This document shows positions 11,553 through 29,187 of a stretch of DNA of 32,000 nt, one piece after another (position 1 is the first letter of the stretch; the number at the start of each line of letters is the position of its first letter). Source of the stretch: an uncultured Alphaproteobacteria bacterium (lineage in GTDB: Bacteria; Pseudomonadota; Alphaproteobacteria; Rhizobiales; Aestuariivirgaceae); contig CAVVDT010000003.1 of assembly GCA_963747005.1 (NCBI GenBank), forward strand, positions 336,901 to 368,900. The letters run 5' to 3'. The position numbers were made by a program, and so were the translations under genes. Below the pieces are notes generated by a model. That model worked only from the letters and a program-made list of their open reading frames with translations. It was not told where the DNA came from and ran no database searches.

Positions 11553-12086
11553 ATGGACGACGACCGCGGCGCCGGGAGCGGAGTTGCTTGCACGCCGCCG
11601 GCAGTTGACGACGACAGGACGTCGGCGATTGCCTGCGACTACCTCGAAAGGCGACTGCCGATCGACGAGATCCTGAAGCGCCATCACATCTCTTACCGCT
11701 GCTTTTATCGCCTGATCGACAATGAGGGTTGGGCAAGACGGAGACCGCAGCGATCAAAGAAGGCGGAAGTGAGGATGCACAGCCCCGCTGCGCTGCTTGC
11801 CCGCTTGCGCAAACTGGCGCGGCGGCGCATCGCCGCGCTGGAAAAGGCGGCGAACACCGATGCAACAGACTTTGCCGGCCATGAGCGCCAGGTCAGGACG
11901 CTCACTGCCCTTGTCTCGCTGGTCAGGCACATCGAAGAACTCGAAGCCGCGAGCAGGTCGGACAGCGCGGCCGCACCTCGGGTCATGACGCCGGAAGAGG
12001 CCGATGAGCGACGCCAGAAGCTTGCGCAAATGCTTGTTGCAATGCTCGAGCAGGCAGGCGGTCGACGACTTCCTGACAGCGGTTGA
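11553..12086 (+). CDS. g1-position protein: putative HTH / small-terminase-like protein
   Basis: The ATG at 11553 lies within track ORF 11022..12086, whose upstream part overlaps ycgN and the promoter region. There is a possible HTH (LPIDEILKRHHISYRCFYRLI) followed by a predicted coiled coil (LARLRKLARRRIAALEKAA...IEELEAA). It sits immediately upstream of TerL and overlaps it. The function is inferred from position only. Confidence 0.5.
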   Translation: MDDDRGAGSGVACTPPAVDDDRTSAIACDYLERRLPIDEILKRHHISYRCFYRLIDNEGWARRRPQRSKKAEVRMHSPAALLARLRKLARRRIAALEKAANTDATDFAGHERQVRTLTALVSLVRHIEELEAASRSDSAAAPRVMTPEEADERRQKLAQMLVAMLEQAGGRRLPDSG

Positions 12087-13359
12087 CGGCGAGGATCTGG
12101 GCTTTCTGCAAGCTGACTGGGCAACGCTTGCCCGTGACGATCAATGGCCGGCGCTGGCGCCTGCAGGCGAAAGCGGACCGGCCACGTGGCTGTTCATCGG
12201 CGGGCGCGGTGCCGGCAAGACTCGCGCGGGTGCTGAGTGGGTGCGCCGCATGGCCATCGACCGCCGGCTGCGACCGCCGGGCGAGGACCTGGTGCGCATC
12301 GCCCTGGTGGGCCCCACCCTGAGCGAGGTACGCCAGGTGATGGTGGAGGGGCAATCGGGGTTGTTGGCCGTTCATGGGGATCGTGACGTCCGCCCGCTGT
12401 TTGAACCCTCGCGCCGGCAACTGACCTGGCCCGATCTGGCCATCGCCCAGATGTTTTCCGCCGAGGAGCCGGACAGCCTGCGCGGCTTCCAGTTCCACGC
12501 CGCCTGGTGCGACGAACTGGCCAAATGGCGCCAGTCCCGCGCCACCTGGGACATGCTCGAATTCGGCATGCGCCTGGGCGACAATCCGCAGCGCGTAGTG
12601 ACCACGACGCCGCGGCCGATACCGCTTCTGAAGGCGCTGATGGCCGATCCGGCGACCCTCGTTACGCGGGCAAGGACGGCTGACAACGCCGGCTTTCTGG
12701 CCCGCACCTTTCTCGATCACGTGACGGCGCGCTATGGCGGTACCGTCCTCGGCCGCCAGGAACTGGATGCCGAGATCATCGAGGAAGTTCAGGGCGCGCT
12801 GTTCTCGCGCCGCCTGATCGAGGCGGGACGTATCACTGCTGCGCCGGACCTTGTGCGCATCGTCGTTGCCGTCGATCCACCGGTGAGCCGCGGCCCCAAG
12901 GCGGCGGCCTGCGGCATCGTCTGCGCCGGGCGCGGGGCCGACGGGCGCGGCTATGTGCTCGACGACATGACCATCGAGGGCGCAAGCCCCATGGGCTGGG
13001 TGGCGCGTGCCGCTGGCCTCTATCACGCCCGCACCGCCGACCGGCTGGTGGCCGAGGTCAACCAGGGGGGCGATCTCGTAGCCAGCCTCTTGCGCGAAGT
13101 CGATCCGACGGTCGCCTATCGCGCCGTCCATGCCCGCCAGGGCAAGCGCTTGCGGGCCGAACCGGTCGCCGCGCTCTACGAACAGGGCCGGGTCTCCCAC
13201 GTCGGGGCATTTCCCGAACTCGAAGACGAAATGTGCAGTTTCATCGGGGCGGGCGACAGACCTGAGCGCAGTCCCGACCGCCTCGATGCCCTGGTGTGGG
13301 CCTTGAGCGACCTCTTGCTCGCCCGGCCGCGCACCGTGCCGCGCATCCGCCAACTGTAG
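12004..13359 (+). CDS. GTA/phage terminase large subunit (g2, TerL)
   Basis: The N-terminus is LGFLQADWATLARDDQWP followed by the Walker A segment WLFIGGRGAGKTRAGAEWVR, typical of RcGTA g2-type DNA-packaging proteins. The start is uncertain: ATG at 12004 gives an 83-nt overlap with the g1-like ORF, and in-frame TTG codons at 12034/12037 are alternatives. Confidence 0.9.
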   Translation: MSDARSLRKCLLQCSSRQAVDDFLTAVDGEDLGFLQADWATLARDDQWPALAPAGESGPATWLFIGGRGAGKTRAGAEWVRRMAIDRRLRPPGEDLVRIALVGPTLSEVRQVMVEGQSGLLAVHGDRDVRPLFEPSRRQLTWPDLAIAQMFSAEEPDSLRGFQFHAAWCDELAKWRQSRATWDMLEFGMRLGDNPQRVVTTTPRPIPLLKALMADPATLVTRARTADNAGFLARTFLDHVTARYGGTVLGRQELDAEIIEEVQGALFSRRLIEAGRITAAPDLVRIVVAVDPPVSRGPKAAACGIVCAGRGADGRGYVLDDMTIEGASPMGWVARAAGLYHARTADRLVAEVNQGGDLVASLLREVDPTVAYRAVHARQGKRLRAEPVAALYEQGRVSHVGAFPELEDEMCSFIGAGDRPERSPDRLDALVWALSDLLLARPRTVPRIRQL

Positions 13360-13377
13360 GAAAAGCCCGGAGGCTCA

Positions 13378-14601
13378 ATGCCAAACTGGTTCTCTTTGCT
13401 CGCCCGCCTCGTGGGCGCGGCACCCGCTTCGCCACCCGAGGCCAAGCGCAGCCGTACCGGTCCCCTGATTGCCCTGCAGACCGGCCACCAGCCGGTATGG
13501 ACGCCACGCAACTACCAGGCCCTGGCGAAGGAAGGCTTTGCCACCAATGCCGTGGGCTATCGCTGCGTGCGCATGATCTCCGAGGCCGCAGCGTCCGTCG
13601 AATGGCTGCTCTATGAGGACCAGCGCGAGCTTACCCGCCACCCTCTGCTCGACCTGCTGGCCCGGCCCAATCCGGTCGAGGACGGCCGTTCGCTGATGGA
13701 AGCTTTCTACGGCCACCTCTACATCGCCGGAAGCGCCTATCTGGAGGCTGCCAGCATCGATGGCGAGGTGCGCGAGTTGCATGCGCTGCGTCCCGACCGC
13801 ATGCGCGTGGTGGCCGGCGAGGACGGCTGGCCGGAAGCTTATGATTATACCATCGCCGGCCGCTCGGTGCGCTTTGCCCAGGACGGCAACGGCCCGGTAC
13901 CGCCGATCATGCACCTGCGCCTGTTCAATCCGACCGACGACCATTACGGCCTGTCGCCGCTGGAGGCCGCCGCCCGTGCCATCGACATCCACAACGCCGC
14001 CGGCGCCTGGAACAAGGCCCTGCTCGACAATTCCGCCCGGCCCTCGGGCGCTCTCATCTACAATGGCGGCGAAGCGGGCGGCCTCACCGAGGAACAGTTC
14101 GATCGCCTGAAGCAGGAGCTGGAGACCTCCTATCAGGGCGCCGTCAATGCCGGACGCCCGCTGGTGCTGGAAGGCGGCCTCGACTGGAAACCGCTGTCGC
14201 TCACCCCGCGCGACATGCAGCATATCGAGCTCCGATACGTGGCGGCGCGCGATATCGCACTGGCTTTCGGCGTGCCCCCCATGCTGCTCGGCATCCCCGG
14301 CGACAACACCTTTTCCAATTATGCCGAGGCCAACCGCACCTTTTGGCGCCAGACGGTGTTGCCGCTGGTCGCCCGCACCGCCGGTGCGCTCAGCCACTGG
14401 CTGAGACCGGTGTGGGGCGGCGGATTGAGCCTCGGCTACGACGCCGACAAGATCGAGGCCCTGGCGGGCGATCGCCAGGCCCTGTGGTCGAGCCTTGAGC
14501 AGGCCAGGTTCCTGACCGTCAACGAAAAGCGCATGGCCGTGGGTTACGGCGCGTTGGCAGACGGTGATCGCCTCCCGAGTAGTGCGACGGGGGCGGCCTG
14601 A
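13378..14601 (+). CDS. Phage portal protein, HK97 family (g3)
   Basis: The size (407 aa), the position between TerL and the protease, and motifs such as NAVGYRCVRMISEAAASV, PLLDLLARPNP and MLLGIPGDNTFSNYAEANRTFWRQTV fit HK97-type portals. Confidence 0.9.
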   Translation: MPNWFSLLARLVGAAPASPPEAKRSRTGPLIALQTGHQPVWTPRNYQALAKEGFATNAVGYRCVRMISEAAASVEWLLYEDQRELTRHPLLDLLARPNPVEDGRSLMEAFYGHLYIAGSAYLEAASIDGEVRELHALRPDRMRVVAGEDGWPEAYDYTIAGRSVRFAQDGNGPVPPIMHLRLFNPTDDHYGLSPLEAAARAIDIHNAAGAWNKALLDNSARPSGALIYNGGEAGGLTEEQFDRLKQELETSYQGAVNAGRPLVLEGGLDWKPLSLTPRDMQHIELRYVAARDIALAFGVPPMLLGIPGDNTFSNYAEANRTFWRQTVLPLVARTAGALSHWLRPVWGGGLSLGYDADKIEALAGDRQALWSSLEQARFLTVNEKRMAVGYGALADGDRLPSSATGAA

Positions 14602-14603: not shown

Positions 14604-15146
14604 ATGGCGACCGCAGCGCATTCCTTCAATACTTCTGGTCCAGTCGATGCAGGCGCGGTCGTCTCCGGCTATGCCAGCCTGTTCAACCTGCCCGACTCAA
14701 GCGGCGATGTGGTCCTGCCGGGCGCCTTTGCCAGGACCCTGGCGCGGCGCGGGCCAGACGGTGTCCGCATGCTCTGGCAGCACGATCCGGCTCAGCCTAT
14801 CGGGCGCTGGACCAGCCTCGTGGAGGACCGCCTGGGCCTCAAGGTCACGGGCCGGCTGACGGCAGGTGTCGCGACTGCCGACGACCTCGCCCGGCTGGTT
14901 GCCGATGCGGCCGTCGATGGCCTGTCCATAGGGTTCCGCACCGTGCGTGCCACATCGGACCCCAAGCGCGGCATCCGCCTGATCCGCGAGATCGATCTGT
15001 GGGAGGTGTCGCTTGTCACCTTCCCCATGCATCCCCGCGCCCGTCTCGTCCCGAGCGGTCCGCAAGGGATGAACGGCGGCGATCGCGCCGCCCTGGTCCG
15101 GCGTCTCGATGAGGCGAGGCGGACGATGCATTTGTCCATGTCATGA
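14604..15146 (+). CDS. HK97 family prohead protease (g4)
   Basis: VSGYASLFNLPDSSGDVVLPGAFARTL...MLWQHDPAQPIGRW...GLSIGF...EIDLWEVSLVTFPM is the HK97 prohead protease pattern. The gene starts 3 nt after the portal stop. Confidence 0.9.
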   Translation: MATAAHSFNTSGPVDAGAVVSGYASLFNLPDSSGDVVLPGAFARTLARRGPDGVRMLWQHDPAQPIGRWTSLVEDRLGLKVTGRLTAGVATADDLARLVADAAVDGLSIGFRTVRATSDPKRGIRLIREIDLWEVSLVTFPMHPRARLVPSGPQGMNGGDRAALVRRLDEARRTMHLSMS

Positions 15147-16420
15147 GGAGCATTGAAGAAGAGATGGATAGGGTTCCGCAGTATGAAACCAAGGTCGAGC
15201 CAGCCCCGCGCGACGTCAATGACGCCTTCGACGGCTTCATGACGACGTTCGAGGCTTTCCGCCAGGCCAACGATCGCCGGCTTGACGAGATCGAGCAGCG
15301 CATGAGCGCCGATGTCGTAACCCGCGACAAGGTCGAGCGCCTCAACAGCGCCCTCGACGAACACAAGGCCAAGCTCGACACCCTGACCCTGAAGGGCGCC
15401 CGTCCGCGCCTCGGCCGCGATGGCGACGAAGGGCGCGTCAGCCGGCCGAGCGAGCACAAGGCCGCCTTCGAGCGCTATGTGCGTCGCGGCGAAACCTCCG
15501 CGCTGGCCAATCTGGAAGCCAAGAGCCTGTCGGTGGGCAGCGACCCCGACGGCGGCTATCTGGTGCCGGACGAGACCGAAACGGAAATCGGCCGCCTGCT
15601 TGCCGCTGCCTCGCCGATCCGCGCCATCGCTGGCGTCCGGCAGGTTTCGGCCTCGGTCTACAAGAAGCCCTTTGCCATCACGGGTGCGGCGACCGGCTGG
15701 GTGGGCGAGACGGCGGCGCGGACCGAGACCGCCTCGCCGACGCTGGCCGAACTGCAGTTCCCGACCATGGAACTCTATGCCATGCCGGCCGCCACCCAGA
15801 GCCTGCTGGATGATGCCGCGGTCAATGTCGACCAGTGGATCGCCGAGGAGGTGCAGACGGTATTCGCCGAACAGGAAGGCGCTGCCTTCGTCACCGGCGA
15901 TGGCACCAACAAGCCGCGCGGCTTCCTCGACTACACCAGCGTCGATGATGCTTCGTGGAGCTGGGGCAACATCGGCTATGTGCCGACCGGCGTCGCTGGC
16001 GATTTTCCCGCAAGCGATGCCTCCGATGTGCTGGTCGATCTGGTCTACAGCCTGAAGAGCGGCTACCGCCAGGGTGCCTACTGGGTGATGAACCGCAAGA
16101 CCCAGGCCGAAATCAGGAAGCTCAAGGATGCCAACGGCCACTACCTCTGGCAGCCGGCGGCCACCGCCGACGGGCGCGCCAGCCTGATGAGCTTTCCCAT
16201 CGCCGAGGCCGAGGACATGCCCGACATCGCCGCCGATTCCACCGCGATCGCCTTCGGCGATTTCCGCCGCGGTTATCTGATCGTCGACCGGCTGGGGGTC
16301 AGGGTGCTGCGCGATCCCTATTCCTCCAAGCCCTACGTGCTGTTCTACACCACCAAGCGTGTTGGCGGCGGCGTGCAGAATTTCGAAGCGATCAAGCTGT
16401 TGAAGTTTGCTGTGTCGTAG
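15143..16420 (+). CDS. HK97 family major capsid protein (g5)
   Basis: The ATG overlaps the protease stop (ATGA at 15143-15146). An N-terminal coiled-coil delta-like region is followed by an HK97-fold core (LQFPTMELYAMPAATQSLLDDAAVNVDQWIAEEV...GDGTNKPRGFL). Confidence 0.92.
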   Translation: MRSIEEEMDRVPQYETKVEPAPRDVNDAFDGFMTTFEAFRQANDRRLDEIEQRMSADVVTRDKVERLNSALDEHKAKLDTLTLKGARPRLGRDGDEGRVSRPSEHKAAFERYVRRGETSALANLEAKSLSVGSDPDGGYLVPDETETEIGRLLAAASPIRAIAGVRQVSASVYKKPFAITGAATGWVGETAARTETASPTLAELQFPTMELYAMPAATQSLLDDAAVNVDQWIAEEVQTVFAEQEGAAFVTGDGTNKPRGFLDYTSVDDASWSWGNIGYVPTGVAGDFPASDASDVLVDLVYSLKSGYRQGAYWVMNRKTQAEIRKLKDANGHYLWQPAATADGRASLMSFPIAEAEDMPDIAADSTAIAFGDFRRGYLIVDRLGVRVLRDPYSSKPYVLFYTTKRVGGGVQNFEAIKLLKFAVS

Positions 16421-16511: not shown

Positions 16512-17090
16512 ATGCCCTTGATGCTCGTGACGCCCCCTCAGGGCGAACCCTTGAGCCTTGCCGAGGCCAAGACGTTTCTGCGGCTCGACACAACCGACGA
16601 CGACGTGGTGGTGAGCGATCTGATTGCCGCTGCCCGCCAGCGCATCGAGACCGGTGCCGGCCTGGCGCTGCTCACCCAGAACTGGCGCCTGGTGCTCGAC
16701 GATTGGCCCTCAAGTCGCGAAGTGGGGCTGATACCCGTGCCTGTCGCCAATGTCGATGCGGTACGGGTCCTCGATGCCGACGGCGTCGCCGAGGTCATCG
16801 ATCCGGTCGATTACCTGGCCGAGACGACGTCGCGCCCGGCCCGCCTGGTCCTGCTTTCATCGCGCCAATGGGGGAAGCCCGGACGCGCGGCCGGTGGTAT
16901 CGAGATCGATTTCACCGCCGGCTACGGCAGCGATGCCTCGAGCGTCCCGCTCCCCCTGCGCCAGGCCGTCATGCATCTGGTGACCGAGGCCTACGAGAAC
17001 CGCGAAGGCGGCAGGCCGCAATCACAGCCCGGACGCCTTTCCCCCATCGTGGCGCAACTCATCGGACCCTACCGGAGGGCGCGCCTGTGA
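16512..17090 (+). CDS. Head-tail connector protein, gp6-like (g6)
   Basis: PLSLAEAKTFLRLDTTDDDVVVSDLIAAARQRIETGAGLALLTQNWRLVLDDWP is the phage gp6-like connector motif. Confidence 0.85.
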   Translation: MPLMLVTPPQGEPLSLAEAKTFLRLDTTDDDVVVSDLIAAARQRIETGAGLALLTQNWRLVLDDWPSSREVGLIPVPVANVDAVRVLDADGVAEVIDPVDYLAETTSRPARLVLLSSRQWGKPGRAAGGIEIDFTAGYGSDASSVPLPLRQAVMHLVTEAYENREGGRPQSQPGRLSPIVAQLIGPYRRARL

Positions 17091-17410
17091 AGCTGGTTGC
17101 CGAACTGCGCCACCGGGTGAGCCTGCTCGAACCGGTGGAGACCGACGATGGGGCCGGCGGGCGGACCGTCACCTGGTCGGAACGCGATACCGTGTGGGCC
17201 CAGGTCGTTTCGCTGCGCGGCAAGGAGCGGCAATGGGCCGAGGCCCTCACTGCCGAGAGCCCCTACAGCGTCACTTTGCGCTACAGCCCCGACGTCACCG
17301 TCGAAATGCGCATCGGGTTCGATAACCGTTTGCTCGACATCAAGTCCGTCGCCGATCCGGACGGGCGCCGCCGCTGGCTCGTCTGCTACTGCGTCGAAAG
17401 GCCGGTGTGA
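17087..17410 (+). CDS. Phage head closure / head-tail adaptor protein (g7)
   Basis: The GTG at 17087 overlaps the g6 stop (GTGA). LRHRVSLLEPVETDDGAGGRTVTWSERDTVWAQVVSLRGKERQWAEA...YSVTLRY is the SPP1 gp16 / Phage_H_T_join pattern. The track ORF extension to 16703 lies inside g6 in another frame. Confidence 0.85.
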   Translation: MKLVAELRHRVSLLEPVETDDGAGGRTVTWSERDTVWAQVVSLRGKERQWAEALTAESPYSVTLRYSPDVTVEMRIGFDNRLLDIKSVADPDGRRRWLVCYCVERPV

Positions 17411-21690: not shown

Positions 21691-24600
21691 ATGGCAACTC
21701 TGGTCCTGCAGACGGCCGGTCAGGCGCTCGGCGGCCTGTTCGGCCCGTTGGGCGGCATCATCGGCCGCGCCGCCGGCGCAATCGCCGGCAATGTCATCGA
21801 CCAGGCCCTCTTCGGCCCACCCACCAGCCACCGCGATGGCCCGCGCCTCAGCGATCTCTACGTGCTGTCGTCGAGCGAGGGCGCTCCGGTGCCGCGCGTG
21901 TGGGGACGCATGCGGGTCTCGGGTCAGATCATCTGGGCGACCCGGCTGGAAGAAGTGGTGACCACCAGCAAGCAGGGATCAGGCGGCAAGGGCGGCTTGT
22001 TGCGGCCCTCCTCGACCCTCACCGAATACGAATATTTCGCCAATCTCGCCATCGGCCTCGCCGAAGGTCCGATTGCCCGCATCGGCCGTGTCTGGGCCGA
22101 CGGCAAGGAGATCGAACTGGACGCCTTTGCCTGGCGCTTTTATCCAGGCGACGAGACCCAGGAGCCCGACAGCCTCATCCTCGCCAAGGAAGGCGCCGAT
22201 GCAGCACCTGCCTATCGCGGTCTTGCCTATGTGGTGCTGGAGCGCTTGCCGCTCGCCCAGTTCGGCAACCGGGTGCCGCAGTTCTCCTTCGAGATATTCC
22301 ACCCGCTGGAATCGATGGAAGACGCTTTGCGCGCCGTGTGCATCATTCCCGGCTCGACCGAATTCGGCTATGAGCCGGCGATCGTTACACGCCAGATCGG
22401 ATGGGGCGAGACCGAGAGCGAGAACGCCCATGCCTCGGCGCTCAAGTCCGACTGGACCGTCTCGCTCGACCAGCTCGCCGGCACCTGTCCGAACGTGGCC
22501 GCCGCATCGCTGGTGGTCGCCTGGTTCGGCGACGACCTGCGCTGCGGTTCGACCACTCTGAAACCCGGCGTCGAGAACACCAACAAGCAAACGTCACCGA
22601 TGAGCTGGGGCGTGGCCGGCCTCGGGCGTGGCGATGCCCATGTCGTATCCGAGATCGACGGTGGTCCGGCCTTCGGCGGCACACCGAGCGACAATTCCGT
22701 TCTCGACGCCATCGCCGATCTCAAGGTGCGCGGGCTCGATGTGGTGTTCTACCCCTTCATCCTGATGGACATTCCCACCGGCAAAGGCCTTGCCGATCCG
22801 TACGGCGTCGGTGCCGAACAGGCGGTTTATCCCTGGCGCGGGCGCATCACCTGCGACCCGGCGCCGGGCGTTGCCGGATCGCCCGACAAGACCGCCGCGC
22901 TGACGGCCGATGTGGATCATTTCTTCGGTGTGGCGCAGGTTTCCGATTTCTCCATCGCCAGCGGCGAGCTGGTCTATTCCGGACCGGACGATTGGGGCCT
23001 CAGGCGCATGGTGTTGCACTATGCCCATCTGTGTTCGCTGGCTGGCGGCGTCGATGCCTTCATTATCGCCAGTGAACTGCGCGGACTGACGACATTGCGC
23101 GATGGCGCGGCGAGCTTTCCCGCCGTCGAGCGGCTGAAGACGCTGGCCGCGGACGTGGCGGGTGTGTTGCCGGGCGCCAAGGTCTCCTATGCCGCGGACT
23201 GGTCGGAATATTTCGGCTATCAGCCGAACGATGCCTCGGGCGATGTGTTCTTTCACCTTGACCCCTTGTGGGCCGCGCCCGCCGTCGCCTTCATCGGCAT
23301 CGACAACTACCTGCCCTTGAGCGACTGGCGCCCCGGCATCGCCCACGCCGATGCCGCGGTCGGTTGGTCCGCGGTCTACGATGCGGACTATCTAAAGTCC
23401 AACATCGCCGGCGGTGAATATTTCGACTGGTATTATGCCAACGATGCCGACCGCGCACTGCAGCAGCGCACCGCTATCAGCGACGGTGCCTATGGCAAGC
23501 CCTGGGTGTTCCGACCCAAGGATCTGGTGAACTGGTGGTCCAACCAGCATTTCAATCGCCCCGACGGCACCGAGGACACCACGCCGACCGGCTGGGTGCC
23601 ACAATCCAAGCCCATCTGGTTCACGGAATTGGGGGTCCCGGCGGTCGATCTCGGCACCAACCAGCCCAACGTCTTCTACGACCCGAAATCTTCCGAAAGC
23701 GCGTTGCCGTATTTCTCCAGCGGGGTGCGCGACGACCTGATCCAGCGGCGGGCGCTGCTGGCTGTCAGCGACTACTGGCGCGCAAGCTCCGGCAATCCGG
23801 TCTCGACGATCTATGGCGGCCCCATGATCGATGCCGACCGTCTTTTCGTGTGGTGCTGGGACGCGCGGCCGTTTCCCGCCTTCCCGGGGCGCAGCGATGT
23901 GTGGGCCGACGCCCCCAACCACCAGCGCGGACATTGGCTCAACGGCCGCCTGGGCGCGGTCGCGCTCGACGATCTCGTTGCCGACATTTGCCACGTCTAC
24001 GGCTTCGACGGTGCGCAAAGTGGTGAGCTGAACGCCGTCATCGACGGTTTTCTCATCGACCGGCCCATGTCGGCGCGAGATGCCATCGAGCCGCTGGCGC
24101 GTCTCTATGCCTTCGACGGCATCGAAACCGGCGGCAACATCATCTTCCGTTCAAGGCTGCAACGTGACGCCGTGGCCATGGCCCATGACGACCTTGTCGA
24201 AACCGATGCCGCAAAGCCGTTGATTGATCTGACGCGCGCCCAGGAAAGCGAACTGCCGACGTCGATCAGGATCGCCTATACCGAAAGCTCGGGCGATTAC
24301 CTTCGCGCCATGGTGGAGGCCCGGCGCTCATCGGCCTCCACCATCCAGGACGTCGCCCTCGATGCCCCTTGCGTACTGCCCCAGTCGAATGCGGCATCGC
24401 GCGCCGCGGTGCTGCTGGCCGAAGCCTGGGTGGGGCGCGAGACGGCCCGCTTCGTGTTGCCACCCGACCGGCTGGCGATCGAGCCGGGCGATTCCATCCT
24501 GCTGGCGGAATCGGGCGTCACCCGGCGCTACCGCATAGAGGAAGTCTCGGATGGCACGGCCCGCGAGGTGCTGGCCAGAAGCCTCGATCCGCATGTCTAC

Positions 24601-25590
24601 GAGCCGCCCGAGGCCCCGGTGCGCGGTGCCGTGGTCTATCAACCGGCGGTATTCGGTGCCCCGGCTGTGGCGGCACTGGATTTGCCCCTGATCGCCGACG
24701 ACGCCAATCCCTATGCACCGTGGATGGCGGCCGCCGCGCTGCCCTGGCCCGGCGAAATCGCCGTGGTGCGCGTCACCGCTACCGGTTATGCGCTCGATAC
24801 GCTGCTGACCCGCCCCGCCGCCATCGGCCTGCTGACAACGGATTTGCCGACCGGACCGCTCGGCCGCTACGACCGGCATGCGAGCTTCGAGGTCAAGCTG
24901 GTCAACGGCACGCTGCAGTCGATCTCAACGCTCGAATTGCTCGCCGGTGGCAATGCCGCGGCAGTTGAGACGGCGCCAGGCCAATGGGAAGTGCTGCAAT
25001 TCGGTACTGCCGAACTGGTGGCCGATCGTACCTACAGGCTGTCGACGCTGTTGCGCGGACAGGCGGGTTCGGATGCCGAAATGGTTGCCGAGGTGGCCGC
25101 CGGCGCAAGCTTTGTGCTTCTCGATGAAGCCGTGCGCCAACTCGATGCCACCAGTGCCGATCTCGGTCTGCCGCTCGACCTGGCCGCCGGGCCGGCCTCC
25201 CGCGATCCCGCCGATGCCGCCTATGTGTCCTTCACCCTCACGCCATCAGGGCTGGGGCTCAGGCCGTTGCGACCCGTACACCTTAACGCCCGCAATGAGG
25301 GCGGCGATATCGTCCTGAGCTGGATCAGGCGCTCGCGCATCGGCGCCGACAGCTGGCAGAGCGTCGAGATTCCCCTTGGCGAGGAGGTGGAGAATTACAT
25401 CCTCGAACTCCTGGACGGCGCCAGCGTCGTGCGCACCATCGATCTCGCGGCTTCGACCTATCGTTACACAGCGGTCGACCGGCTGGCCGACTTCGGAACG
25501 CCGTTGCCGACAACTCTTCACGTCCGGGTAGCCCAGAAAAGCACGGTCTATGGTCCCGGCCCCTACGCGGAGAATACCTTCAATGTCTGA
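21691..25590 (+). CDS. GTA baseplate multidomain protein megatron / host-specificity protein (g15)
   Basis: A 1299-aa protein directly after g14. The N-terminus is MATLVLQTAGQALGGLFGPLGGIIGRAAGAIAGNVIDQALFG...GPRLSDL. It has a central TIM-barrel-like region (VFYPFILMDIP...IWFTELGVPAVDLGTNQPNVFYDPKSSES) and a C-terminal fibronectin-like tail, as in RcGTA g15. Confidence 0.9.
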   Translation: MATLVLQTAGQALGGLFGPLGGIIGRAAGAIAGNVIDQALFGPPTSHRDGPRLSDLYVLSSSEGAPVPRVWGRMRVSGQIIWATRLEEVVTTSKQGSGGKGGLLRPSSTLTEYEYFANLAIGLAEGPIARIGRVWADGKEIELDAFAWRFYPGDETQEPDSLILAKEGADAAPAYRGLAYVVLERLPLAQFGNRVPQFSFEIFHPLESMEDALRAVCIIPGSTEFGYEPAIVTRQIGWGETESENAHASALKSDWTVSLDQLAGTCPNVAAASLVVAWFGDDLRCGSTTLKPGVENTNKQTSPMSWGVAGLGRGDAHVVSEIDGGPAFGGTPSDNSVLDAIADLKVRGLDVVFYPFILMDIPTGKGLADPYGVGAEQAVYPWRGRITCDPAPGVAGSPDKTAALTADVDHFFGVAQVSDFSIASGELVYSGPDDWGLRRMVLHYAHLCSLAGGVDAFIIASELRGLTTLRDGAASFPAVERLKTLAADVAGVLPGAKVSYAADWSEYFGYQPNDASGDVFFHLDPLWAAPAVAFIGIDNYLPLSDWRPGIAHADAAVGWSAVYDADYLKSNIAGGEYFDWYYANDADRALQQRTAISDGAYGKPWVFRPKDLVNWWSNQHFNRPDGTEDTTPTGWVPQSKPIWFTELGVPAVDLGTNQPNVFYDPKSSESALPYFSSGVRDDLIQRRALLAVSDYWRASSGNPVSTIYGGPMIDADRLFVWCWDARPFPAFPGRSDVWADAPNHQRGHWLNGRLGAVALDDLVADICHVYGFDGAQSGELNAVIDGFLIDRPMSARDAIEPLARLYAFDGIETGGNIIFRSRLQRDAVAMAHDDLVETDAAKPLIDLTRAQESELPTSIRIAYTESSGDYLRAMVEARRSSASTIQDVALDAPCVLPQSNAASRAAVLLAEAWVGRETARFVLPPDRLAIEPGDSILLAESGVTRRYRIEEVSDGTAREVLARSLDPHVYEPPEAPVRGAVVYQPAVFGAPAVAALDLPLIADDANPYAPWMAAAALPWPGEIAVVRVTATGYALDTLLTRPAAIGLLTTDLPTGPLGRYDRHASFEVKLVNGTLQSISTLELLAGGNAAAVETAPGQWEVLQFGTAELVADRTYRLSTLLRGQAGSDAEMVAEVAAGASFVLLDEAVRQLDATSADLGLPLDLAAGPASRDPADAAYVSFTLTPSGLGLRPLRPVHLNARNEGGDIVLSWIRRSRIGADSWQSVEIPLGEEVENYILELLDGASVVRTIDLAASTYRYTAVDRLADFGTPLPTTLHVRVAQKSTVYGPGPYAENTFNV

Positions 25591-26663
25591 AACGACCCCG
25601 CTTCTGAACCTGCCCTTCATCATGGCGGCGCAGGCGCAAAAGCACGTCACGCCACAACGACGCCCTGCTCGGGCTCGATGCGCTGGTGCAGCTTTCGGTG
25701 CTGAGCCGCACCGTGGCCGATCCGCCCGGCTCCCCGCAGGAAGGCGACCGCTATATCGTCGCCGCACCGGCTACGGGCGACTGGACCGGGATGGAAGCTG
25801 CCGTCGCGGCCTTTCAGGATGGCATCTGGCGCTTTTATTCGCCGATGCCGGGCTGGCGTGTGTGGATCAGCGATGAGGCACGCTTTCTCGTGCATGATGC
25901 CACGCAATGGCGCGGGGTTATCGCCGATGCCGATCTGCAGGACGTCGCCGAACTGGGGATCAACGCCACGGCGGACGCCACCAACAAGCTGGCGGTGAAG
26001 TCGCCCGGCGTGCTGTTCGACAACATCGGCAACGACAGCCAGGTCAAGGTCAACAAGGCGGCCGCCGGCGACACCGCTTCGCATCTCTTTCAGACCGGCT
26101 ATTCCGGCCGCGCCGAGTTCGGCCTGACCGGCGACGACGATTTCCACGCCAAGGTCTCGCCCGACGGCGCCGCCTGGAACGATGGCTTGCTCATCGACAA
26201 GTCCAGTGGCCGCGTCACCTTCCCCAGCGGGATCGGTGAACAGGGCACGTGGACCCCGACCGTCACGTTCTCGACACCTGGGGATTTCTCGCCGACCTAT
26301 AGCGCTCAGCAGGCCGATTACATCGGGCTCGGGGATTGGGCTTATGTGAGCTTCTATGTCAAATTCGACACCAACGCCTACACGACCGCGGGCGGCTACC
26401 TTCGTCTCGACGGCCTGCCCTTCGCGAGCCGCGTCGAAGGCACCTTACAGTTCTTCCCTTGCGGCAACGCGATTACCACAAAGGTGGTCTTTCTGACCGC
26501 CTACAAGCAGGTCATGTGGGTGACCCGCACCGGCTTTACCTGGTTGACCTTGATGTCTGTGAACAGTGGCGGCGGCACGTCGTCTCTGGGCGTCCCGACC
26601 CAGTTCCCGGCCTCGACCGCAGGCTTCGAGCTGTGGGGATCATTCTGGTACCGGAGGTCTTAG
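25583..26663 (+). pseudogene. DUF2793 domain tail-fibre-like protein interrupted by a 1-nt frameshift near codon 23
   Basis: The ATG at 25583 overlaps the g15 stop by 8 nt (ATGTCTGA). Frame 2 reads MSETTPLLNLPFIMAAQAQKHVT and then turns into Arg/Pro-rich nonsense. Frame 0 continues from 25653 as HNDALLGLDALVQLSVLSRTVADPPGSPQEGDRYIV..., the expected DUF2793 continuation (QAQKHVTHNEAL.. motif). One extra base lies within ACGCCAC (25649-25655). Confidence 0.75.
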
Positions 26664-26665: not shown

Positions 26666-27142
26666 ATGCAGTTCATCGCCCTCGACTTCAATCCCGCCGC
26701 CGTTCCGGTGGGTCTGCTCTTTCGCAAGCAAGACGGTGGCAATCATCGCCGTTGCGTAACGCCCGGCGCGGATATGTCTGATCTGCCGGCCAAAGCACAG
26801 GAGCGAATTGCCGTCCACTGGGAGAGCCTTGGCGGCGATGCGGCATGGCAGGCCATCGCCTATCCGCCGCCGGCGCCGGCCACCGCCGCCGATATCAAGG
26901 CCGAGGCGGAGCGGCGCATCCTCGCAGTGCTGCCGGAATGGAAGCAGAGGAACCTGACGGCGCGCGGGATCGAGCTCTTGCTGGCGCTGGTGAAGAACAG
27001 GGGTTGGACAGCGGCGGAAACAGCCGAAGCCACCGCCATCCAGGCGGACTGGGACAAGGTAAAGGCCATCCGCGCGCGCTCTGACGACCTCGAGCAAGAA
27101 CTGCCGGCAGATTGCATGGCCAACAGGAACTGGCCGGCCTGA
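26666..27142 (+). CDS. Hypothetical protein, tail-fibre-assembly/chaperone-like (DUF4376-like C-terminal motif)
   Basis: The ATG at 26666 lies 3 nt after the DUF2793 stop. IKAEAERRILAVLPEWKQRNLTARGIELL...ADWDKVKAIRARSDDLEQEL resembles phage tail fibre assembly/chaperone domains. The track ORF extension to 26336 overlaps the DUF2793 gene in another frame. Confidence 0.5.
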   Translation: MQFIALDFNPAAVPVGLLFRKQDGGNHRRCVTPGADMSDLPAKAQERIAVHWESLGGDAAWQAIAYPPPAPATAADIKAEAERRILAVLPEWKQRNLTARGIELLLALVKNRGWTAAETAEATAIQADWDKVKAIRARSDDLEQELPADCMANRNWPA

Positions 27143-27317
27143 CCCGCATCGGACGGCCTGGCGGTCTTGTTCTCCCGGTAGCGGCCAGGACCGCCGCTTC
27201 CCGCCGGCCAGGGCGGCATCCCCGGCGGCGATATCGCCCGCCAGTACAACCAGGTGATCGCCACGGTACTCGGCCTGCCGACCAGTCGATCGTAGTCCTG
27301 GCAGGAAAGAGCAGCCA

Positions 27318-27586: not shown

Positions 27587-27991
27587 ATGCGCGCCATGCC
27601 GGGACTCATGGTGCTGCTTTTGGCGGCATCGCTTGCCATCGATGCGGCGGCTTCGTCGGCCATGCCCCGAACCGGCCCGGTTCTGCCGTCCGGTCCGGTT
27701 GTTGCCTGCCCGCACCTCGCTCGGTTGCTCGACATGGTGAGCCACAATTCCCACCGGCTCACGGCGACCCGGATAAGCAGCGGCAAGATTGCCAAGCTGT
27801 TCGACAATCTACCCGTCGACCTGCCATCGCGTCTTGCCCGTGCCGATACGGCCCTCATCATCCGCGCCGCCAGCGGCAAGGGGCAGGCGATCATCGTGCT
27901 GTTCTTCAACGGTTGCGCGCTCGCTGCCTTGCGCCTGCCCGCCACCGCGGTGGTGCTTGCCATCAGAATAGTCCTTGGACAGGAGATCTGA
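27587..27991 (+). CDS. Hypothetical exported/membrane protein inside the lysis cassette
   Basis: The ATG lies 9 nt after GGAGAGG. It has an N-terminal signal-like segment (MRAMPGLMVLLLAASLAIDAAASSA) and a C-terminal hydrophobic region (AIIVLFFNGCALAALRLPATAVVLAIRIVLG). No family was recognised. Confidence 0.5.
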   Translation: MRAMPGLMVLLLAASLAIDAAASSAMPRTGPVLPSGPVVACPHLARLLDMVSHNSHRLTATRISSGKIAKLFDNLPVDLPSRLARADTALIIRAASGKGQAIIVLFFNGCALAALRLPATAVVLAIRIVLGQEI

Positions 27992-27995
27992 ACCC

Positions 27996-28697
27996 ATGGA
28001 ATTGTGTGAAGATGGCCTTGATCTCATCAAGGCGCAGGAAGGCTTCAGGGCGAGAGCCTATCGGGATGCGACCGGCGTGTGGACCATCGGCTATGGTCAC
28101 ACTTCCATGGCCGGGCCGCCGCATGTGACACCAAGGATGGAAATCTCCGCCCGGCAAGGCGAGGACATCTTCCACCGCGACGTAACGCGCTTTGCCGAGG
28201 GGGTTCGCAAGTCCCTCGAGCGCGACCTTACCGACCGGCAGTTCACCGCCCTGGTGAGCTTTGCCTACAATGTCGGGCTTGCCAATTTCCGCGGGTCTTC
28301 AGTCCTCCGTGCTGTCAATGACGGCGACTTCGAGGCCGTGCCGCGCCGTCTGTCACTATGGGTGAAGGCGGGCGGACGGACCCTGCCTGGCCTCATCAAG
28401 CGTCGGGCGGCCGAAGCCGCCCTGTTCGCGGGTGAAACCGAAGCTTCTGTCGACGGCGGTGCAAGGCACCTGCCCGAGTCGCCCCGCGGCAAGCCCACGC
28501 ACCGCTCGACGACGACGCTCGCCGCCATCGTTTCGGCATTGGCGGCGGCGGCCTCCACCCTCGCTTCAGGGGTGCGCGACCTCGCCGGTGCCCTGCCGGC
28601 GGTGCGCCCATCGATGATCGCTGCGATCATCGTGGCGGGGGCGGCGGCCTGGATCATCCGCGAACGCTGGCTGAAATCGCGCGACGAGGGCGTTTGA
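27996..28697 (+). CDS. GH24 phage-type lysozyme (endolysin) with C-terminal hydrophobic/TM tail
   Basis: MELCEDGLDLIKAQEGFRARAYRDATGVWTIGYGHT carries the E/D/T catalytic triad spacing of T4/lambda-type lysozymes, and FTALVSFAYNVG and LPGLIKRRAAEAALF also fit. The C-terminal 80 aa contains two hydrophobic stretches (TLAAIVSALAAAASTLASGV and MIAAIIVAGAAAWII). Confidence 0.88.
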   Translation: MELCEDGLDLIKAQEGFRARAYRDATGVWTIGYGHTSMAGPPHVTPRMEISARQGEDIFHRDVTRFAEGVRKSLERDLTDRQFTALVSFAYNVGLANFRGSSVLRAVNDGDFEAVPRRLSLWVKAGGRTLPGLIKRRAAEAALFAGETEASVDGGARHLPESPRGKPTHRSTTTLAAIVSALAAAASTLASGVRDLAGALPAVRPSMIAAIIVAGAAAWIIRERWLKSRDEGV

Positions 28698-28698
28698 G

Positions 28699-29187
28699 AT
28701 GCTGCCCATCATCGGCATTCTCGGGCCCCTCTTCAGTTTTGTGCGTGGACCCGTCTTCAGCATCATCGACAAGCTGGTTGTCGATGCAAATCTGAAAGAG
28801 CGCCTGAAGGCGGAACTCGAGCAGCACGTCCTCGACAACCAGTCCGAACTGGCCAAGGTCCAGCGCGACGTCGTGCTCGCCGAGATCGGTTCCGACTCCT
28901 GGATGACCAGCCACTGGCGCCCGTGTCTCATGTTCATCATCATGGGCTTCCTTGTTCTCTACGGCCTGTTCCTGCCGCTCGCCGACCTGATGGCCGGCCG
29001 GCCTGTCGCCTTCTCCCCGCGCTGGACCGACATTCCGGACGGCATGTGGAACCTCCTGAGCCTCGGCGTTGGCGGCTATGTGGGCGGCCGCTCCCTGGAA
29101 AAGCTCGTGTCCACATGGGTCGGAAGGGCAGGCGATCAGGCCGCGCCGCCTACCGGCAAGCGCGGGAATTGGAAGGGGAGCAGGTAA
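28699..29187 (+). CDS. Holin, GTA_holin_3TM (PF11351-like)
   Basis: The ATG lies 2 nt after the lysozyme stop. It has three hydrophobic segments and the AEIGSDSWMTSHWRPCLMFIIMGFLVLYGL motif, which I associate with the holin of 3TMs for gene-transfer release. The endolysin-then-holin order matches the R. capsulatus lysis locus. Confidence 0.75.
   Translation: MLPIIGILGPLFSFVRGPVFSIIDKLVVDANLKERLKAELEQHVLDNQSELAKVQRDVVLAEIGSDSWMTSHWRPCLMFIIMGFLVLYGLFLPLADLMAGRPVAFSPRWTDIPDGMWNLLSLGVGGYVGGRSLEKLVSTWVGRAGDQAAPPTGKRGNWKGSR

What the first reader, a model, noticed from the sequence alone, without database searches (positions are those of the whole stretch)
11553..29187. Complete RcGTA-type gene transfer agent with fibre-like and lysis genes consolidated into one ~17.6-kb locus
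Gene order from the g1-like ORF to g15 is canonical and tightly packed. There is no integrase, repressor, replication module or tRNA/att signature, the flanks are housekeeping genes, and the tape measure is only 188 aa. All of this points to a domesticated GTA rather than a prophage. In the R. capsulatus paradigm, as I recall it, tail fibre, head spike and endolysin/holin genes lie at separate chromosomal loci. Here a DUF2793 fibre-like gene, a chaperone-like gene and a four-gene lysis cassette follow g15 directly on the same strand. This could be an ancestral, prophage-like organisation of the GTA genome or a secondary consolidation. Either way the locus should allow co-regulation of assembly and release.
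Basis: partly seen in the sequence, partly recalled or inferred. Interest (0 to 1): 0.65.

Follow-up and report, generated by a model that had tools for sequence, protein, structure and literature searches.

The report
RcGTA-type gene transfer agent locus
This is a genuine domesticated-phage "gene transfer agent" cluster whose tail-fibre and cell-lysis genes sit directly behind the structural genes, a layout already reported and common in this bacterial order, and this copy has a broken tail-fibre gene.

Summary
Window 11553-29187 (+ strand) encodes an RcGTA-like head-tail cluster from g1 to g15, then a DUF2793 tail-fibre gene, a 158-aa unknown, two small membrane proteins, a GH24 endolysin and a GTA-type holin. 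There is no integrase, tRNA or att repeat, and the flanks are housekeeping genes.

"Complete" is not supported. The fibre gene carries a 1-base insertion at about 25652, in its most conserved N-terminal motif. A 2.45-kb deletion has also removed two genes (119 aa and about 685 aa) that the closest relatives carry between the 158-aa gene and the lysis cassette. "Chaperone-like" has no profile or fold support.

The consolidated layout is neither unique nor new:
- Shakya et al. 2017 reported rcc00171 and rcc00555 homologues at the 3' end of GTA clusters and proposed an ancestral single locus.
- In my survey of 66 species-level loci, 39 have the fibre gene abutting g15 and at least 16 also carry lysis genes. 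None of the 16 is from Rhodobacterales.
- Related true phages use the same order.

Side findings:
- A gafA-family activator gene lies 6.9 kb upstream and has a conserved LexA-box-like repeat in front of it.
- Endolysin catalytic domains are swapped on a conserved C-terminal membrane anchor.

Verdict: new member of a known kind, with modest interest.

The parts
3671..4618 (+). gafA-family (DUF6456) putative GTA activator gene, outside the finding's coordinates, 6.9 kb upstream of g1
   Evidence: Pfam DUF6456 at 1.6e-49. DUF6456 is the annotation of GafA homologues (PMC9638019, PMC9765227). Its linkage to the GTA cluster is conserved in L085, L086, L089 and L106.
3642..3656 (+). GAACAAATAGAGAAC, a GAAC-N7-GAAC direct repeat (alphaproteobacterial LexA-box consensus) 15 nt before the gafA-like ATG
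   Evidence: It is the only exact match in the window. The half-sites are conserved with varying spacers in all close relatives and in two distant ones.
11356..11388 (+). Promoter-like element TCCTTGACA-N17-TATGAAT in an AT-rich stretch upstream of g1
   Evidence: Read from the sequence. It is conserved in L085, and the -35 part also in L086. The consensus scanner did not call it.
11553..12086 (+). g1-like ORF (177 aa), putative small terminase or DNA-binding protein
   Evidence: Weak HTH_23 match and phrog_1303 DNA-binding protein at 5e-5. The same-size gene sits in the same position in L002 and L003.
12004..13359 (+). Large terminase (g2); the true start is probably about 12034
   Evidence: Terminase_6N at 6.8e-29 and Terminase_6C at 2.2e-21. 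Relatives are 440-441 aa.
13378..14601 (+). Portal (g3)
   Evidence: Phage_portal at 5.9e-91.
14604..15146 (+). Prohead protease (g4)
   Evidence: Peptidase_S78 at 2.4e-30.
15143..16420 (+). Major capsid protein (g5)
   Evidence: Phage_capsid at 5.8e-92. It matches RcGTA Rcc01687, PDB 6TB9, at 6.3e-96.
16512..17090 (+). Head-tail connector (g6)
   Evidence: Phage_connect_1 at 2e-10.
17087..17410 (+). Head completion protein (g7)
   Evidence: Phage_HCP at 8.6e-29.
17407..17715 (+). Conserved 102-aa ORF with no family match, extra relative to RcGTA
   Evidence: No Pfam, PHROG, NCBIfam or PDB match. A gene is called at this position in L002-L004. GC3 is 0.845.
17712..18119 (+). Tail completion/terminator protein (g8)
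   Evidence: Tail_completion_gp17 at 9.4e-36.
18147..18560 (+). Tail tube protein (g9)
   Evidence: Phage_tail_2 at 1.3e-43.
18568..18906 (+). Tail assembly chaperone (g10)
   Evidence: Phage_TAC_11 (GTA-gp10) at 7.1e-29.
18945..19115 (+). Tail assembly chaperone (g10.1)
   Evidence: Phage_TAC_6 at 5.1e-15.
19119..19685 (+). Short tape measure protein (g11, 188 aa)
   Evidence: NCBIfam RcGTA_tape at 2.3e-62, 210.6 bits against a cutoff of 220. PHROG tape-measure families also match.
19701..20339 (+). Distal tail protein (g12)
   Evidence: DUF2460 at 4.8e-83.
20336..21235 (+). Baseplate hub (g13)
   Evidence: Phage_phiJL001_Gp84_N at 2.8e-61 and Phage_BR0599 at 3.7e-30.
21232..21681 (+). Cell-wall peptidase (g14)
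   Evidence: NLPC_P60 at 3.5e-8.
21691..25590 (+). g15 'megatron' host-specificity/baseplate protein
   Evidence: GTA_TIM at 2.4e-145, Phage-tail_3 and Rcc01698_C. Full-length match to PDB 6TBA Rcc01698, 1103 bits.
25583..26663 (+). DUF2793 tail-fibre gene (Rcc00171 family), interrupted by a 1-base insertion at about 25651-25652; repaired product 359 aa
   Evidence: Its N-terminus matches the phage RcKvothe fibre. The C-terminal ~110 aa are diverged from relatives.
26666..27142 (+). 158-aa protein of unknown function; rare family with the conserved C-terminal motif PEWKQRNLTAR...WP
   Evidence: Only 20 homologues were found (alignment A3). The AF2 model has pLDDT 95. There is no fold match in PDB or BFVD.
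27206..27295 (+). Remnant (last ~28 codons plus stop) of the ~685-aa gene deleted from this genome; the deletion junction lies in 27143-27212
   Evidence: blastn against L002 and L003, translated remnant, and the identical junction in contig L001.
27318..27533 (+). 71-aa protein with an N-terminal coiled-coil-like region and a C-terminal TM; conserved partner just upstream of the endolysin
   Evidence: Hydropathy analysis. Homologues lie next to the endolysin in 10 other loci. dN/dS is 0.17-0.23.
27587..27991 (+). 134-aa membrane protein (N-terminal and C-terminal hydrophobic segments), fast-evolving, clade-restricted
   Evidence: Hydropathy analysis. Found in only 4 loci. dN/dS is 0.5-0.6.
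27996..28697 (+). GH24 endolysin with a C-terminal membrane anchor
   Evidence: Phage_lysozyme at 1.5e-41 and PDB GH24 lysozymes. BgtA profile 179.7 bits, below the cutoff of 315. TM segments at 175-193 and 203-221. The anchor is shared with the GH19 enzyme of L004.
28699..29187 (+). GTA-type 3-TM holin
   Evidence: GTA_holin_3TM at 4.6e-14, 53.4 bits against a cutoff of 24.8. phrog_3427 holin at 3e-23.

Best explanation
The locus is a vertically inherited, domesticated RcGTA-type gene transfer agent of an uncultured Hyphomicrobiales-like alphaproteobacterium. It keeps the phage-like late-operon order: packaging, head, tail, baseplate (g12-g15), DUF2793 tail fibre, a variable accessory slot, then a lysis cassette.

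Likely working (inferred): a gafA-family activator encoded 6.9 kb upstream turns on a promoter upstream of g1. The roughly 17.6 kb are read as one unit or a few coupled units. Small capsids with short tails are built and fitted with the DUF2793 fibre at the g15 baseplate. The 3-TM holin, together with the membrane-anchored GH24 endolysin and small membrane proteins, then lyses the producer cell.

In this particular genome the adsorption module is damaged. The fibre gene has a frameshift after codon 23, and a 2.45-kb deletion removed two neighbouring genes. If the frameshift is real, particles may still be made and released but would probably be poor at gene delivery.

Shown here: gene content, order, junctions, conservation, selection, the frameshift and the deletion. 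Inferred: transcription as one unit, the GafA dependence, the lysis mechanism and the functional consequence of the frameshift.
For: Identity with RcGTA:
- Profile matches cover every head-tail gene.
- g15 and capsid match the RcGTA cryo-EM chains.

Not a prophage:
- There is no integrase, repressor, replication gene, tRNA or att repeat.
- The tape measure is 188 aa and of RcGTA type, against 643 aa in the related phage RcKvothe.
- The locus has 66.4% GC against 61.8% outside, the direction reported for GTA large clusters (PMC5721377).

Vertical inheritance:
- Upstream flanks (MucR-PAS5-gafA-SufE-...-PBP1A-CxxCxxCC) are shared by relatives with g15 identity from about 84% (by gafA) and 79% down to 54%.
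- Downstream flanks (nitroreductase, then PepSY where present, then response regulator and histidine kinase) are shared by relatives at 79% and 58%.

Purifying selection: dN/dS is 0.10-0.27 for head-tail genes, 0.13 for the endolysin, 0.05-0.25 for the holin and 0.26 for the repaired fibre.

Coupling of the junctions:
- The fibre ATG overlaps the g15 stop.
- The fibre-p157 gap is 2 nt, p134-endolysin 4 nt and endolysin-holin 1 nt.
- No terminator-like site falls in an intergenic gap.

The phage-like order is seen in RcKvothe. Rcc00171 is essential for RcGTA transfer but not for particle production or binding (PMC5026251). DUF6456 is the GafA family.
Against: - No expression, particle or transfer data exist for this organism.
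- The RcGTA_tape and BgtA profiles score below their curated cut-offs.
- The fibre frameshift and the adjacent deletion could mean the element is decaying.
- g1 has only weak DNA-binding-type matches.
- Co-transcription of 17.6 kb is inferred only from gene packing. A 175-nt gap at the deletion scar (27143-27317) could hold a separate start site.
- The GTA-versus-prophage classifier (GTA-Hunter) could not be run.
Confidence: 0.85

Rival explanations
1. The element is a decaying, non-functional GTA or cryptic prophage remnant in this genome. The fibre frameshift and the 2.45-kb deletion would be the first steps of pseudogenisation, and no transfer-competent particles are made.
For: - The frameshift lies in the most conserved N-terminal fibre motif.
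- A deletion scar with a gene remnant lies next to it.
- Disruption of the R. capsulatus orthologue abolishes transfer (PMC5026251).
- The fibre is the only disrupted gene among about 38 compared with relatives. That argues against a generally error-prone assembly and so favours a real mutation.
Against: - All other 20+ genes are intact and under purifying selection.
- Pairwise dN/dS of the repaired fibre is 0.26, not about 1, so any inactivation is very recent.
- Other lineages (L008, L014, L043) have only the fibre between g15 and the lysis cassette, so the two deleted genes are dispensable in some GTAs.
Confidence: 0.3
2. The extra base in the fibre gene is a sequencing or assembly error, and the GTA is intact apart from lineage-specific loss of two accessory genes.
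For: - It is a single-base indel.
- The repaired reading frame gives a 359-aa protein collinear with the 357-358-aa orthologues.
- dN/dS is 0.26.
- The only independent contig of the same strain (L001) starts 28 nt after the site and cannot confirm it.
Against: - The insertion is not in a long homopolymer (GC to GCC).
- No other gene in the 32-kb window shows a frameshift relative to its orthologues.
Confidence: 0.35
3. The genes after g15 are an independent unit, such as a remnant of another prophage or a host autolysis cassette, that merely lies next to the GTA and is not part of it.
For: - p157, p71 and p134 have no functional annotation.
- The slot between fibre and lysis genes is variable in content, spanning 0-3.5 kb.
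- The endolysin type differs between lineages: GH24, GH19, Amidase_2 and Peptidase_M15.
Against: - The fibre ATG overlaps the g15 stop here and in the relatives.
- The holin belongs to the family defined by the RcGTA holin.
- All 16 surveyed loci with lysis genes also have the fibre abutting g15, on the same strand, between g15 and conserved host genes.
- Related phages have the same order.
- GC3 of the module (0.79) is close to that of the head-tail genes (0.81) and above the flanks (0.74).
Confidence: 0.07

Closest known systems
RcGTA of Rhodobacter capsulatus (head-tail cluster rcc01682-rcc01698 plus the dispersed loci rcc00171, rcc00555/556, rcc01079/1080 and rcc01865/1866)
   Same: - The head-tail genes are homologous and collinear, from g1-like to g15.
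- g15 and the capsid match the solved RcGTA chains over their full length.
- It has a short RcGTA-type tape measure, a DUF2793 fibre of the Rcc00171 family, a holin of the PF11351 family and a DUF6456 (GafA family) regulator.
   Different: - Fibre, endolysin and holin are contiguous with g15 here, whereas they are at separate loci in R. capsulatus.
- The regulator is only 6.9 kb away.
- There is no g3.5, and an extra 102-aa ORF lies between g7 and g8.
- No head-spike (ghsA/B) homologue was identified.
- The endolysin is a GH24 enzyme with a C-terminal membrane anchor. The family of Rcc00555 was not compared here.
- The fibre gene is frameshifted.
RcGTA-like 'large clusters' with rcc00171 and rcc00555 homologues at their 3' end (Shakya, Soucy & Zhaxybayeva 2017, Virus Evolution, PMC5721377)
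   Same: It is the same arrangement and the same evolutionary inference of an ancestral single locus that was later dispersed. That paper reports 22 large clusters with the fibre at the 3' end, 6 of them with the endolysin next.
   Different: - That report is brief, self-described as anecdotal, and does not mention the holin.
- Here the holin, two small membrane proteins and a variable slot are also mapped.
- In my sample the layout appears in at least 16 of 66 species-level loci, with four different endolysin families.
Siphophages carrying RcGTA-like tail modules (Rhodobacter phage RcKvothe and its relatives; RDJLphi1)
   Same: The order is g12-g13-peptidase-g15-DUF2793 fibre-accessory genes-holin/endolysin. 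g15 is 47% identical.
   Different: - The phages are 37-42 kb and have a 643-aa tape measure.
- They also carry further, mostly unannotated genes beyond the lysis cassette, including an antitermination protein and an HNH endonuclease.
- Their holin precedes the endolysin.
- The window has none of the non-structural phage modules and sits at a conserved chromosomal site.
Endolysins with a C-terminal transmembrane domain (LysAP of Acidovorax phage AP1, PMC8879335; M4Lys of phage BSPM4, PMC7143992)
   Same: Each has an N-terminal catalytic domain without a signal peptide and a C-terminal hydrophobic anchor. In AP1 the enzyme is encoded next to a holin.
   Different: - No sequence relationship was tested.
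- The catalytic domain here is GH24.
- The anchor appears to have two hydrophobic segments and is conserved while the catalytic domain is exchanged (GH24 against GH19).
BaGTA endolysin BgtA (NCBIfam NF058676)
   Same: It is the best NCBIfam match of the window's endolysin, at 5.8e-53 and covering profile positions 5-201 of 220.
   Different: The score of 179.7 bits is far below the equivalog cutoff of 315. BaGTA is an unrelated GTA in its structural genes (own knowledge).

Membership tests
RcGTA-type (alphaproteobacterial) GTA large cluster | At least 9 collinear homologues of the RcGTA head-tail genes g1-g15 | tested here: met
   16 of the 17 RcGTA head-tail gene positions are occupied, 15 of them with a family match (g1-like has only weak DNA-binding-type matches). 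They lie in RcGTA order. g15 and capsid match PDB 6TBA and 6TB9. g3.5 is absent.
RcGTA-type (alphaproteobacterial) GTA large cluster | Short RcGTA-type tape measure protein | tested here: inconclusive
   The protein is 188 aa. NCBIfam RcGTA_tape gives 2.3e-62 but 210.6 bits, just under the curated cutoff of 220.
RcGTA-type (alphaproteobacterial) GTA large cluster | No integrase, lysogeny or replication module and no att/tRNA boundary | tested here: met
   Established.
RcGTA-type (alphaproteobacterial) GTA large cluster | Stable chromosomal position with conserved host flanks (vertical inheritance) | tested here: met
   The same upstream flanks occur in relatives down to 54% g15 identity. The same downstream flanks occur in relatives at 79% and 58%.
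RcGTA-type (alphaproteobacterial) GTA large cluster | GC content above that of the host genome | tested here: met
   GC is 66.4% inside against 61.8% outside the locus within the window. Only 14 kb of host sequence was available for comparison.
RcGTA-type (alphaproteobacterial) GTA large cluster | Slow evolution and purifying selection on the structural genes | tested here: met
   dN/dS is 0.10-0.27 against relatives at 79-89% g15 identity.
RcGTA-type (alphaproteobacterial) GTA large cluster | Particles package random host DNA fragments shorter than the cluster and transfer them | not testable with these tools
   This needs culture, EM, DNase-protected DNA sizing and sequencing, and marker transfer.
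RcGTA-type (alphaproteobacterial) GTA large cluster | Classified as GTA by GTA-Hunter (composition-based SVM) | not tested
Rcc00171 / DUF2793 tail fibre | N-terminal DUF2793 domain with the motif TP.L.LP...QAQKHVTHN | tested here: met
   Pfam DUF2793 at 1.1e-25. The motif is split between two frames. It matches 8GTC chain S and the RcKvothe fibre.
Rcc00171 / DUF2793 tail fibre | Intact open reading frame | tested here: not met
   A 1-base insertion at about 25651-25652 relative to L002, L003 and L004.
GTA holin (Pfam PF11351, Rcc00556 family) | Match above the Pfam gathering score, with multiple TM segments | tested here: met
   53.4 bits against a cutoff of 24.8, phrog_3427 holin at 3e-23, and hydrophobic segments at 4-22 and 76-94 plus a weaker third.
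GH24 phage lysozyme | Pfam PF00959 match and the catalytic Glu/Asp/Thr motif | tested here: met
   1.5e-41 and PDB GH24 enzymes. The sequence QEGF...RDATG...WTIGYGH is present (alignment to T4 lysozyme E11/D20/T26 is by eye).
BaGTA endolysin BgtA (NCBIfam equivalog NF058676) | Score above the curated equivalog cutoff | tested here: not met
   179.7 bits against a cutoff of 315.
   No Pfam, PHROG or NCBIfam match. A confident AF2 model (pLDDT 95) has no Foldseek match at E<=0.001 in PDB or BFVD.
GafA-family GTA activator | DUF6456 domain | tested here: met
   1.6e-49. Activation of this cluster by the protein was not testable.
Functional temperate prophage | Integrase, repressor/antirepressor, replication genes and att sites | tested here: not met
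   None was found in the 32-kb window.

The most novel reading that the evidence does not exclude
In this Hyphomicrobiales clade nearly the whole GTA 'genome' sits in one ~26-kb chromosomal neighbourhood: activator, head-tail genes, fibre, a variable receptor-binding slot and a lysis cassette. The gafA-family activator would be directly repressed by LexA through the conserved GAAC-N7-GAAC box 15 nt before its start codon. GTA production would then be SOS-inducible in the manner of a prophage, which would give a direct molecular link between DNA damage and GTA release. A second element is that the lysis cassette evolves by swapping endolysin catalytic domains (GH24/GH19) onto a conserved C-terminal membrane anchor that works with the GTA holin.
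Probability: 0.3. Interest if true: 0.6.

Novelty: new member of a known kind. Interest (0 to 1): 0.3.

Why it matters
GTAs are a model for how bacteria domesticate viruses. A locus that still keeps fibre and lysis genes behind g15 documents the pre-dispersal state that Shakya et al. inferred, and it is a compact target for cloning or heterologous expression of a whole GTA.

That layout is already published and turns out to be common, so this instance adds little by itself. The side observations are the parts that could open experiments:
- a clade-wide conserved LexA-box-like operator at the gafA-family gene;
- gafA linked to the cluster;
- endolysin catalytic-domain swapping on a conserved membrane anchor;
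- a naturally frameshifted fibre gene.

These bear on GTA induction, lysis and host-range evolution outside Rhodobacterales.

Tried and rejected
1. Chaperone identity of the 158-aa ORF. Pfam (E up to 0.1), PHROGs and NCBIfam gave nothing. An AF2 model from a 20-sequence alignment was confident, but Foldseek against PDB and BFVD gave no match at E<=0.001. The label was dropped.

2. Identity of the 119-aa and 683-aa genes missing from the window. There was no Pfam or PDB match and only weak PHROG families of unknown function. They remain unresolved.

3. Spanins. Neither small membrane protein has the i-spanin or o-spanin layout. The VVAC at residue 41 of p134 is too far from the hydrophobic segment to be a convincing lipobox.

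4. CtrA box. One 1-mismatch TTAA-N7-TTAA lies upstream of the gafA-like gene, but chance expectation is 0.7 per window. It is not claimed.

5. Sigma-70 and terminator scans of the locus found no more than shuffled controls.

6. att-like direct repeats were not found.

7. Exact-sequence look-up of the endolysin from its TTG start failed. The true start is the ATG at 27996, as in the relatives.

8. Independent confirmation of the frameshift failed. The only other contig of this strain (L001) begins 28 nt downstream of the site.

9. The jackhmmer profiles for GH24 and GH19 endolysins merged. This was traced to the shared C-terminal anchor, so the 'GH24' and 'GH19' columns should be read simply as 'endolysin'.

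Full report
**What is there**

The window is 64% GC and has no tRNA. On the + strand from 11553 to 29187, profile searches identify a full RcGTA-like head-tail set:
- a g1-like 177-aa ORF with only weak HTH/DNA-binding matches;
- large terminase, portal, S78 protease and HK97-type capsid;
- gp6 connector and head completion protein;
- a conserved 102-aa ORF without any family match;
- tail completion protein and tail tube;
- the GTA-gp10 and Phage_TAC_6 chaperones;
- a 188-aa tape measure;
- DUF2460, the hub, an NlpC/P60 peptidase and a 1299-aa g15 with GTA_TIM, Phage-tail_3 and Rcc01698_C domains.

g15 aligns end to end with the solved RcGTA protein Rcc01698 (6TBA, 1103 bits). The capsid aligns with Rcc01687 (6TB9, 6e-96). 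The tape measure matches NCBIfam RcGTA_tape at 210.6 bits, just below the 220-bit cutoff. Downstream lie a DUF2793 gene, a 158-aa ORF, a 71-aa ORF, a 134-aa ORF, a GH24 lysozyme and a PF11351 GTA holin. The flanks are host genes. PBP1A and a CxxCxxCC protein lie upstream. A nitroreductase, PepSY and an OmpR-type regulator lie downstream. No integrase, repressor or replication gene and no att-like repeat is present.

The fibre gene starts at ATG 25583, overlapping the g15 stop (ATGTCTGA), and encodes MSETTPLLNLPFIMAAQAQKHVT. The conserved continuation HNDALLGLDALVQ... is in the next frame. A DNA alignment with three relatives shows a single inserted base in the window, GTCACGCCACAA against GTCAC-GCACAA. 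Removing it gives a 359-aa protein collinear with the 357-358-aa orthologues.

The interrupted motif is the part shared with the phage RcKvothe fibre and with chain S of the phage baseplate structure 8GTC. It is therefore presumably the baseplate-attachment end. The fibre is the only gene disrupted among about 38 in the window that I could compare with orthologues. That argues for a real mutation, but I could not confirm it. The one independent contig of the same strain (L001, 100% identical over 3.6 kb) begins 28 nt after the site.

Second, window 27143-27212 replaces 2452 bp of relative L002 that encode a 119-aa and a 683-aa protein. The window keeps only the last ~28 codons, GGIPGGDIARQYNQVIATVLGLPT. 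L001 has the same junction, so the deletion is not a mis-assembly. "Complete" is therefore not supported.

The 158-aa "chaperone-like" ORF belongs to a rare family of 20 homologues with a conserved PEWKQRNLTAR...WP C-terminus. It gives a confident AF2 model but no profile or fold match.

**GTA or prophage**

Relatives were found with g15 as query. The nearest are metagenomic, at 89% and 79% identity. There is then a gap to about 58% (Parvibaculaceae, Aestuariivirga, Kaustia and Hyphomicrobiales MAGs), so the host is an uncultured Hyphomicrobiales-like lineage.

In contigs L002, L003 and L004 the whole locus recurs from g1 to the holin. In L003 and L004 it lies in front of the same nitroreductase and response-regulator genes. 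The same MucR-PAS5-DUF6456-SufE-...-PBP1A-CxxCxxCC upstream neighbourhood is seen in L085, L086, L087 and L089.

Pairwise dN/dS against L003 and L002 gives these values:

| Gene set | dN/dS |
|---|---|
| Head-tail genes | 0.10-0.27 |
| Repaired fibre | 0.26 |
| p157 | 0.29 |
| p71 | 0.17-0.23 |
| Endolysin | 0.13 |
| Holin | 0.05-0.25 |
| p134 | 0.5-0.6 |
| Flanking host genes | 0.06-0.15 |

The locus is GC-richer than its surroundings, 66.4% against 61.8%. All of this fits a long-resident, selected GTA and not a recent prophage.

**Is the consolidated layout unusual?**

No. Hynes et al. 2016 showed that Rcc00171, the RcGTA tail fibre, is a DUF2793 protein. They also showed that in phage RDJLphi1 its homologue directly follows the g12-g15 homologues. 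Shakya et al. 2017 reported 22 large clusters in Rhizobiales and Rhodobacterales with an rcc00171 homologue at the 3' end. Six of these also had rcc00555 next to it. They proposed that the GTA genome was once one locus.

I scanned one genome per species with a g15 alignment and searched the 80 loci by iterative HMMs. Of 66 loci with at least 6 kb downstream:
- 39 have a DUF2793 ORF abutting g15, including several Rhodobacterales;
- 16 also have a lysis-type gene within 6.5 kb on the same strand. These include Aestuariivirga, Rhodobiaceae, Thermopetrobacter, Pseudolabrys, Xanthobacteraceae, Rhizomicrobium and Breoghania, and none is from Rhodobacterales.

The count of 16 is a lower bound, because only endolysin families I had seeds for were detectable. 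The endolysin family differs between lineages: GH24 here, GH19 in L004, Amidase_2+SH3 in L016/L017 and Peptidase_M15 in L019/L036. The space between fibre and lysis genes varies from 0 to about 3.5 kb. True phages with RcGTA-like tails, such as RcKvothe (47% g15 identity), have the same order of g15, DUF2793 fibre, two unknowns, holin and endolysin. The layout is thus the phage-like state retained in many non-Rhodobacterales lineages.

**Lysis cassette**

The endolysin has the GH24 E/D/T motif in residues 1-145 and two C-terminal hydrophobic segments. It shares only this ~70-aa anchor (46% identity) with the GH19 enzyme that occupies the same slot in L004, while the holins are orthologous at 32% identity. 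Endolysins with C-terminal TM domains are a known, uncommon type. Examples are LysAP of phage AP1 and M4Lys of BSPM4, where the TMD is required for lysis.

The 71-aa protein has a C-terminal TM and lies just upstream of the endolysin in 10 other loci. It is therefore likely part of the cassette. The 134-aa membrane protein is restricted to the closest relatives and evolves fast. Two of the four "lysis" genes therefore rest on homology and two on position and topology.

**Regulation (outside the finding's coordinates)**

Window 3671-4618 encodes a DUF6456 protein, the family of the RcGTA activator GafA, 6.9 kb upstream of g1. This linkage is conserved, with TerL lying 6.8-8.3 kb after the gafA-like gene in L085, L086, L089 and L106. 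The same gafA-SufE-...-PBP1A stretch appears in about 15 further metagenomic loci.

Fifteen nucleotides before its ATG lies GAACAAATAGAGAAC. This is the GAAC-N7-GAAC form of the alphaproteobacterial LexA box (own knowledge; the GAAC/GTTC consensus is mentioned in PMC6473078). It is the only exact match in the window. The half-sites are conserved with different spacers in every close relative that has upstream DNA (L085, L089-L095) and in two distant ones (L086, L148). They are absent from about 55 more distant loci. The background rate is 1.5e-5 per nt.

In R. capsulatus, LexA affects RcGTA through cckA, with the mechanism described as unknown. I found no report of an SOS box at gafA in the papers read. 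The relatives are not independent, and another regulator, for example GafA itself, could bind the repeat. This is a hypothesis, not a finding.

A promoter-like TCCTTGACA-N17-TATGAAT upstream of g1 is conserved in L085, and partly in L086.

**Verdict**

"Complete" and "chaperone-like" are not supported, and the consolidated layout is already described and common. This is a new member of a known kind with modest interest. The LexA-box/gafA linkage and the anchor-conserving endolysin swaps are the leads most worth following.

Noticed in passing
window 3671-4618 (+): A DUF6456 (GafA-family) gene lies 6.9 kb upstream of g1, preceded by a PAS_5/MopJ-like gene (3069-3596) and a Ros/MucR regulator (2373-2840). 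The neighbourhood MucR-PAS5-gafA-SufE-...-PBP1A-CxxCxxCC-g1 is conserved in many related contigs.
   Followed up: yes
window 3642-3656 (+): GAACAAATAGAGAAC (LexA-box consensus GAAC-N7-GAAC) lies 15 nt before the gafA-like ATG. The half-sites are invariant with variable spacers in L085, L089-L095, L086 and L148, and L087 has an N8 variant. This suggests direct SOS control of the GTA activator in this clade.
   Followed up: partly
window 27996-28697 against L004 17394-18224: The GH24 endolysin here and the GH19 endolysin in the same slot of a 58% relative share only a ~70-aa C-terminal membrane anchor (46% identity). This looks like a catalytic-domain swap on a conserved anchor. Other lineages carry Amidase_2+SH3 or Peptidase_M15 there.
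   Followed up: partly
window 11356-11388 (+): A conserved promoter-like TCCTTGACA-N17-TATGAAT sits behind an AT-rich tract about 165 nt upstream of the g1-like ATG. The long leader is partly conserved with L085.
   Followed up: partly
window 17407-17715 (+): A 102-aa ORF between g7 and g8, with overlapping start and stop, is conserved in relatives (101-107 aa). It has no match in Pfam, PHROGs, NCBIfam or PDB and has no counterpart in the RcGTA gene list.
   Followed up: partly
window 26350-26663 (fibre C-terminus): The last ~110 residues of the fibre are 25-53% identical to the orthologues, against 70-93% for the rest. This is the usual pattern of a diversifying receptor-binding tip.
   Followed up: partly
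L002 8195-9545 and L003 18843-19544: Relatives' contigs contain split genes: DUF2460 and the hub in L002, and the endolysin in L003. These are probably assembly indels, and they are a reminder that single-base frameshifts in such data need read-level confirmation.
   Followed up: no
L017 13924-15915: In a Xanthobacteraceae MAG the fibre after g15 is 663 aa and carries an F5/8 type C (discoidin/lectin) domain after the DUF2793 N-terminus. This is an example of receptor-binding domain exchange on the conserved attachment domain.
   Followed up: no
window 3593-3607 (+): TTAATCAAAATTTGA, one mismatch from the CtrA box TTAA-N7-TTAA, lies upstream of the gafA-like gene. It is not above chance (0.7 expected per window).
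   Followed up: partly
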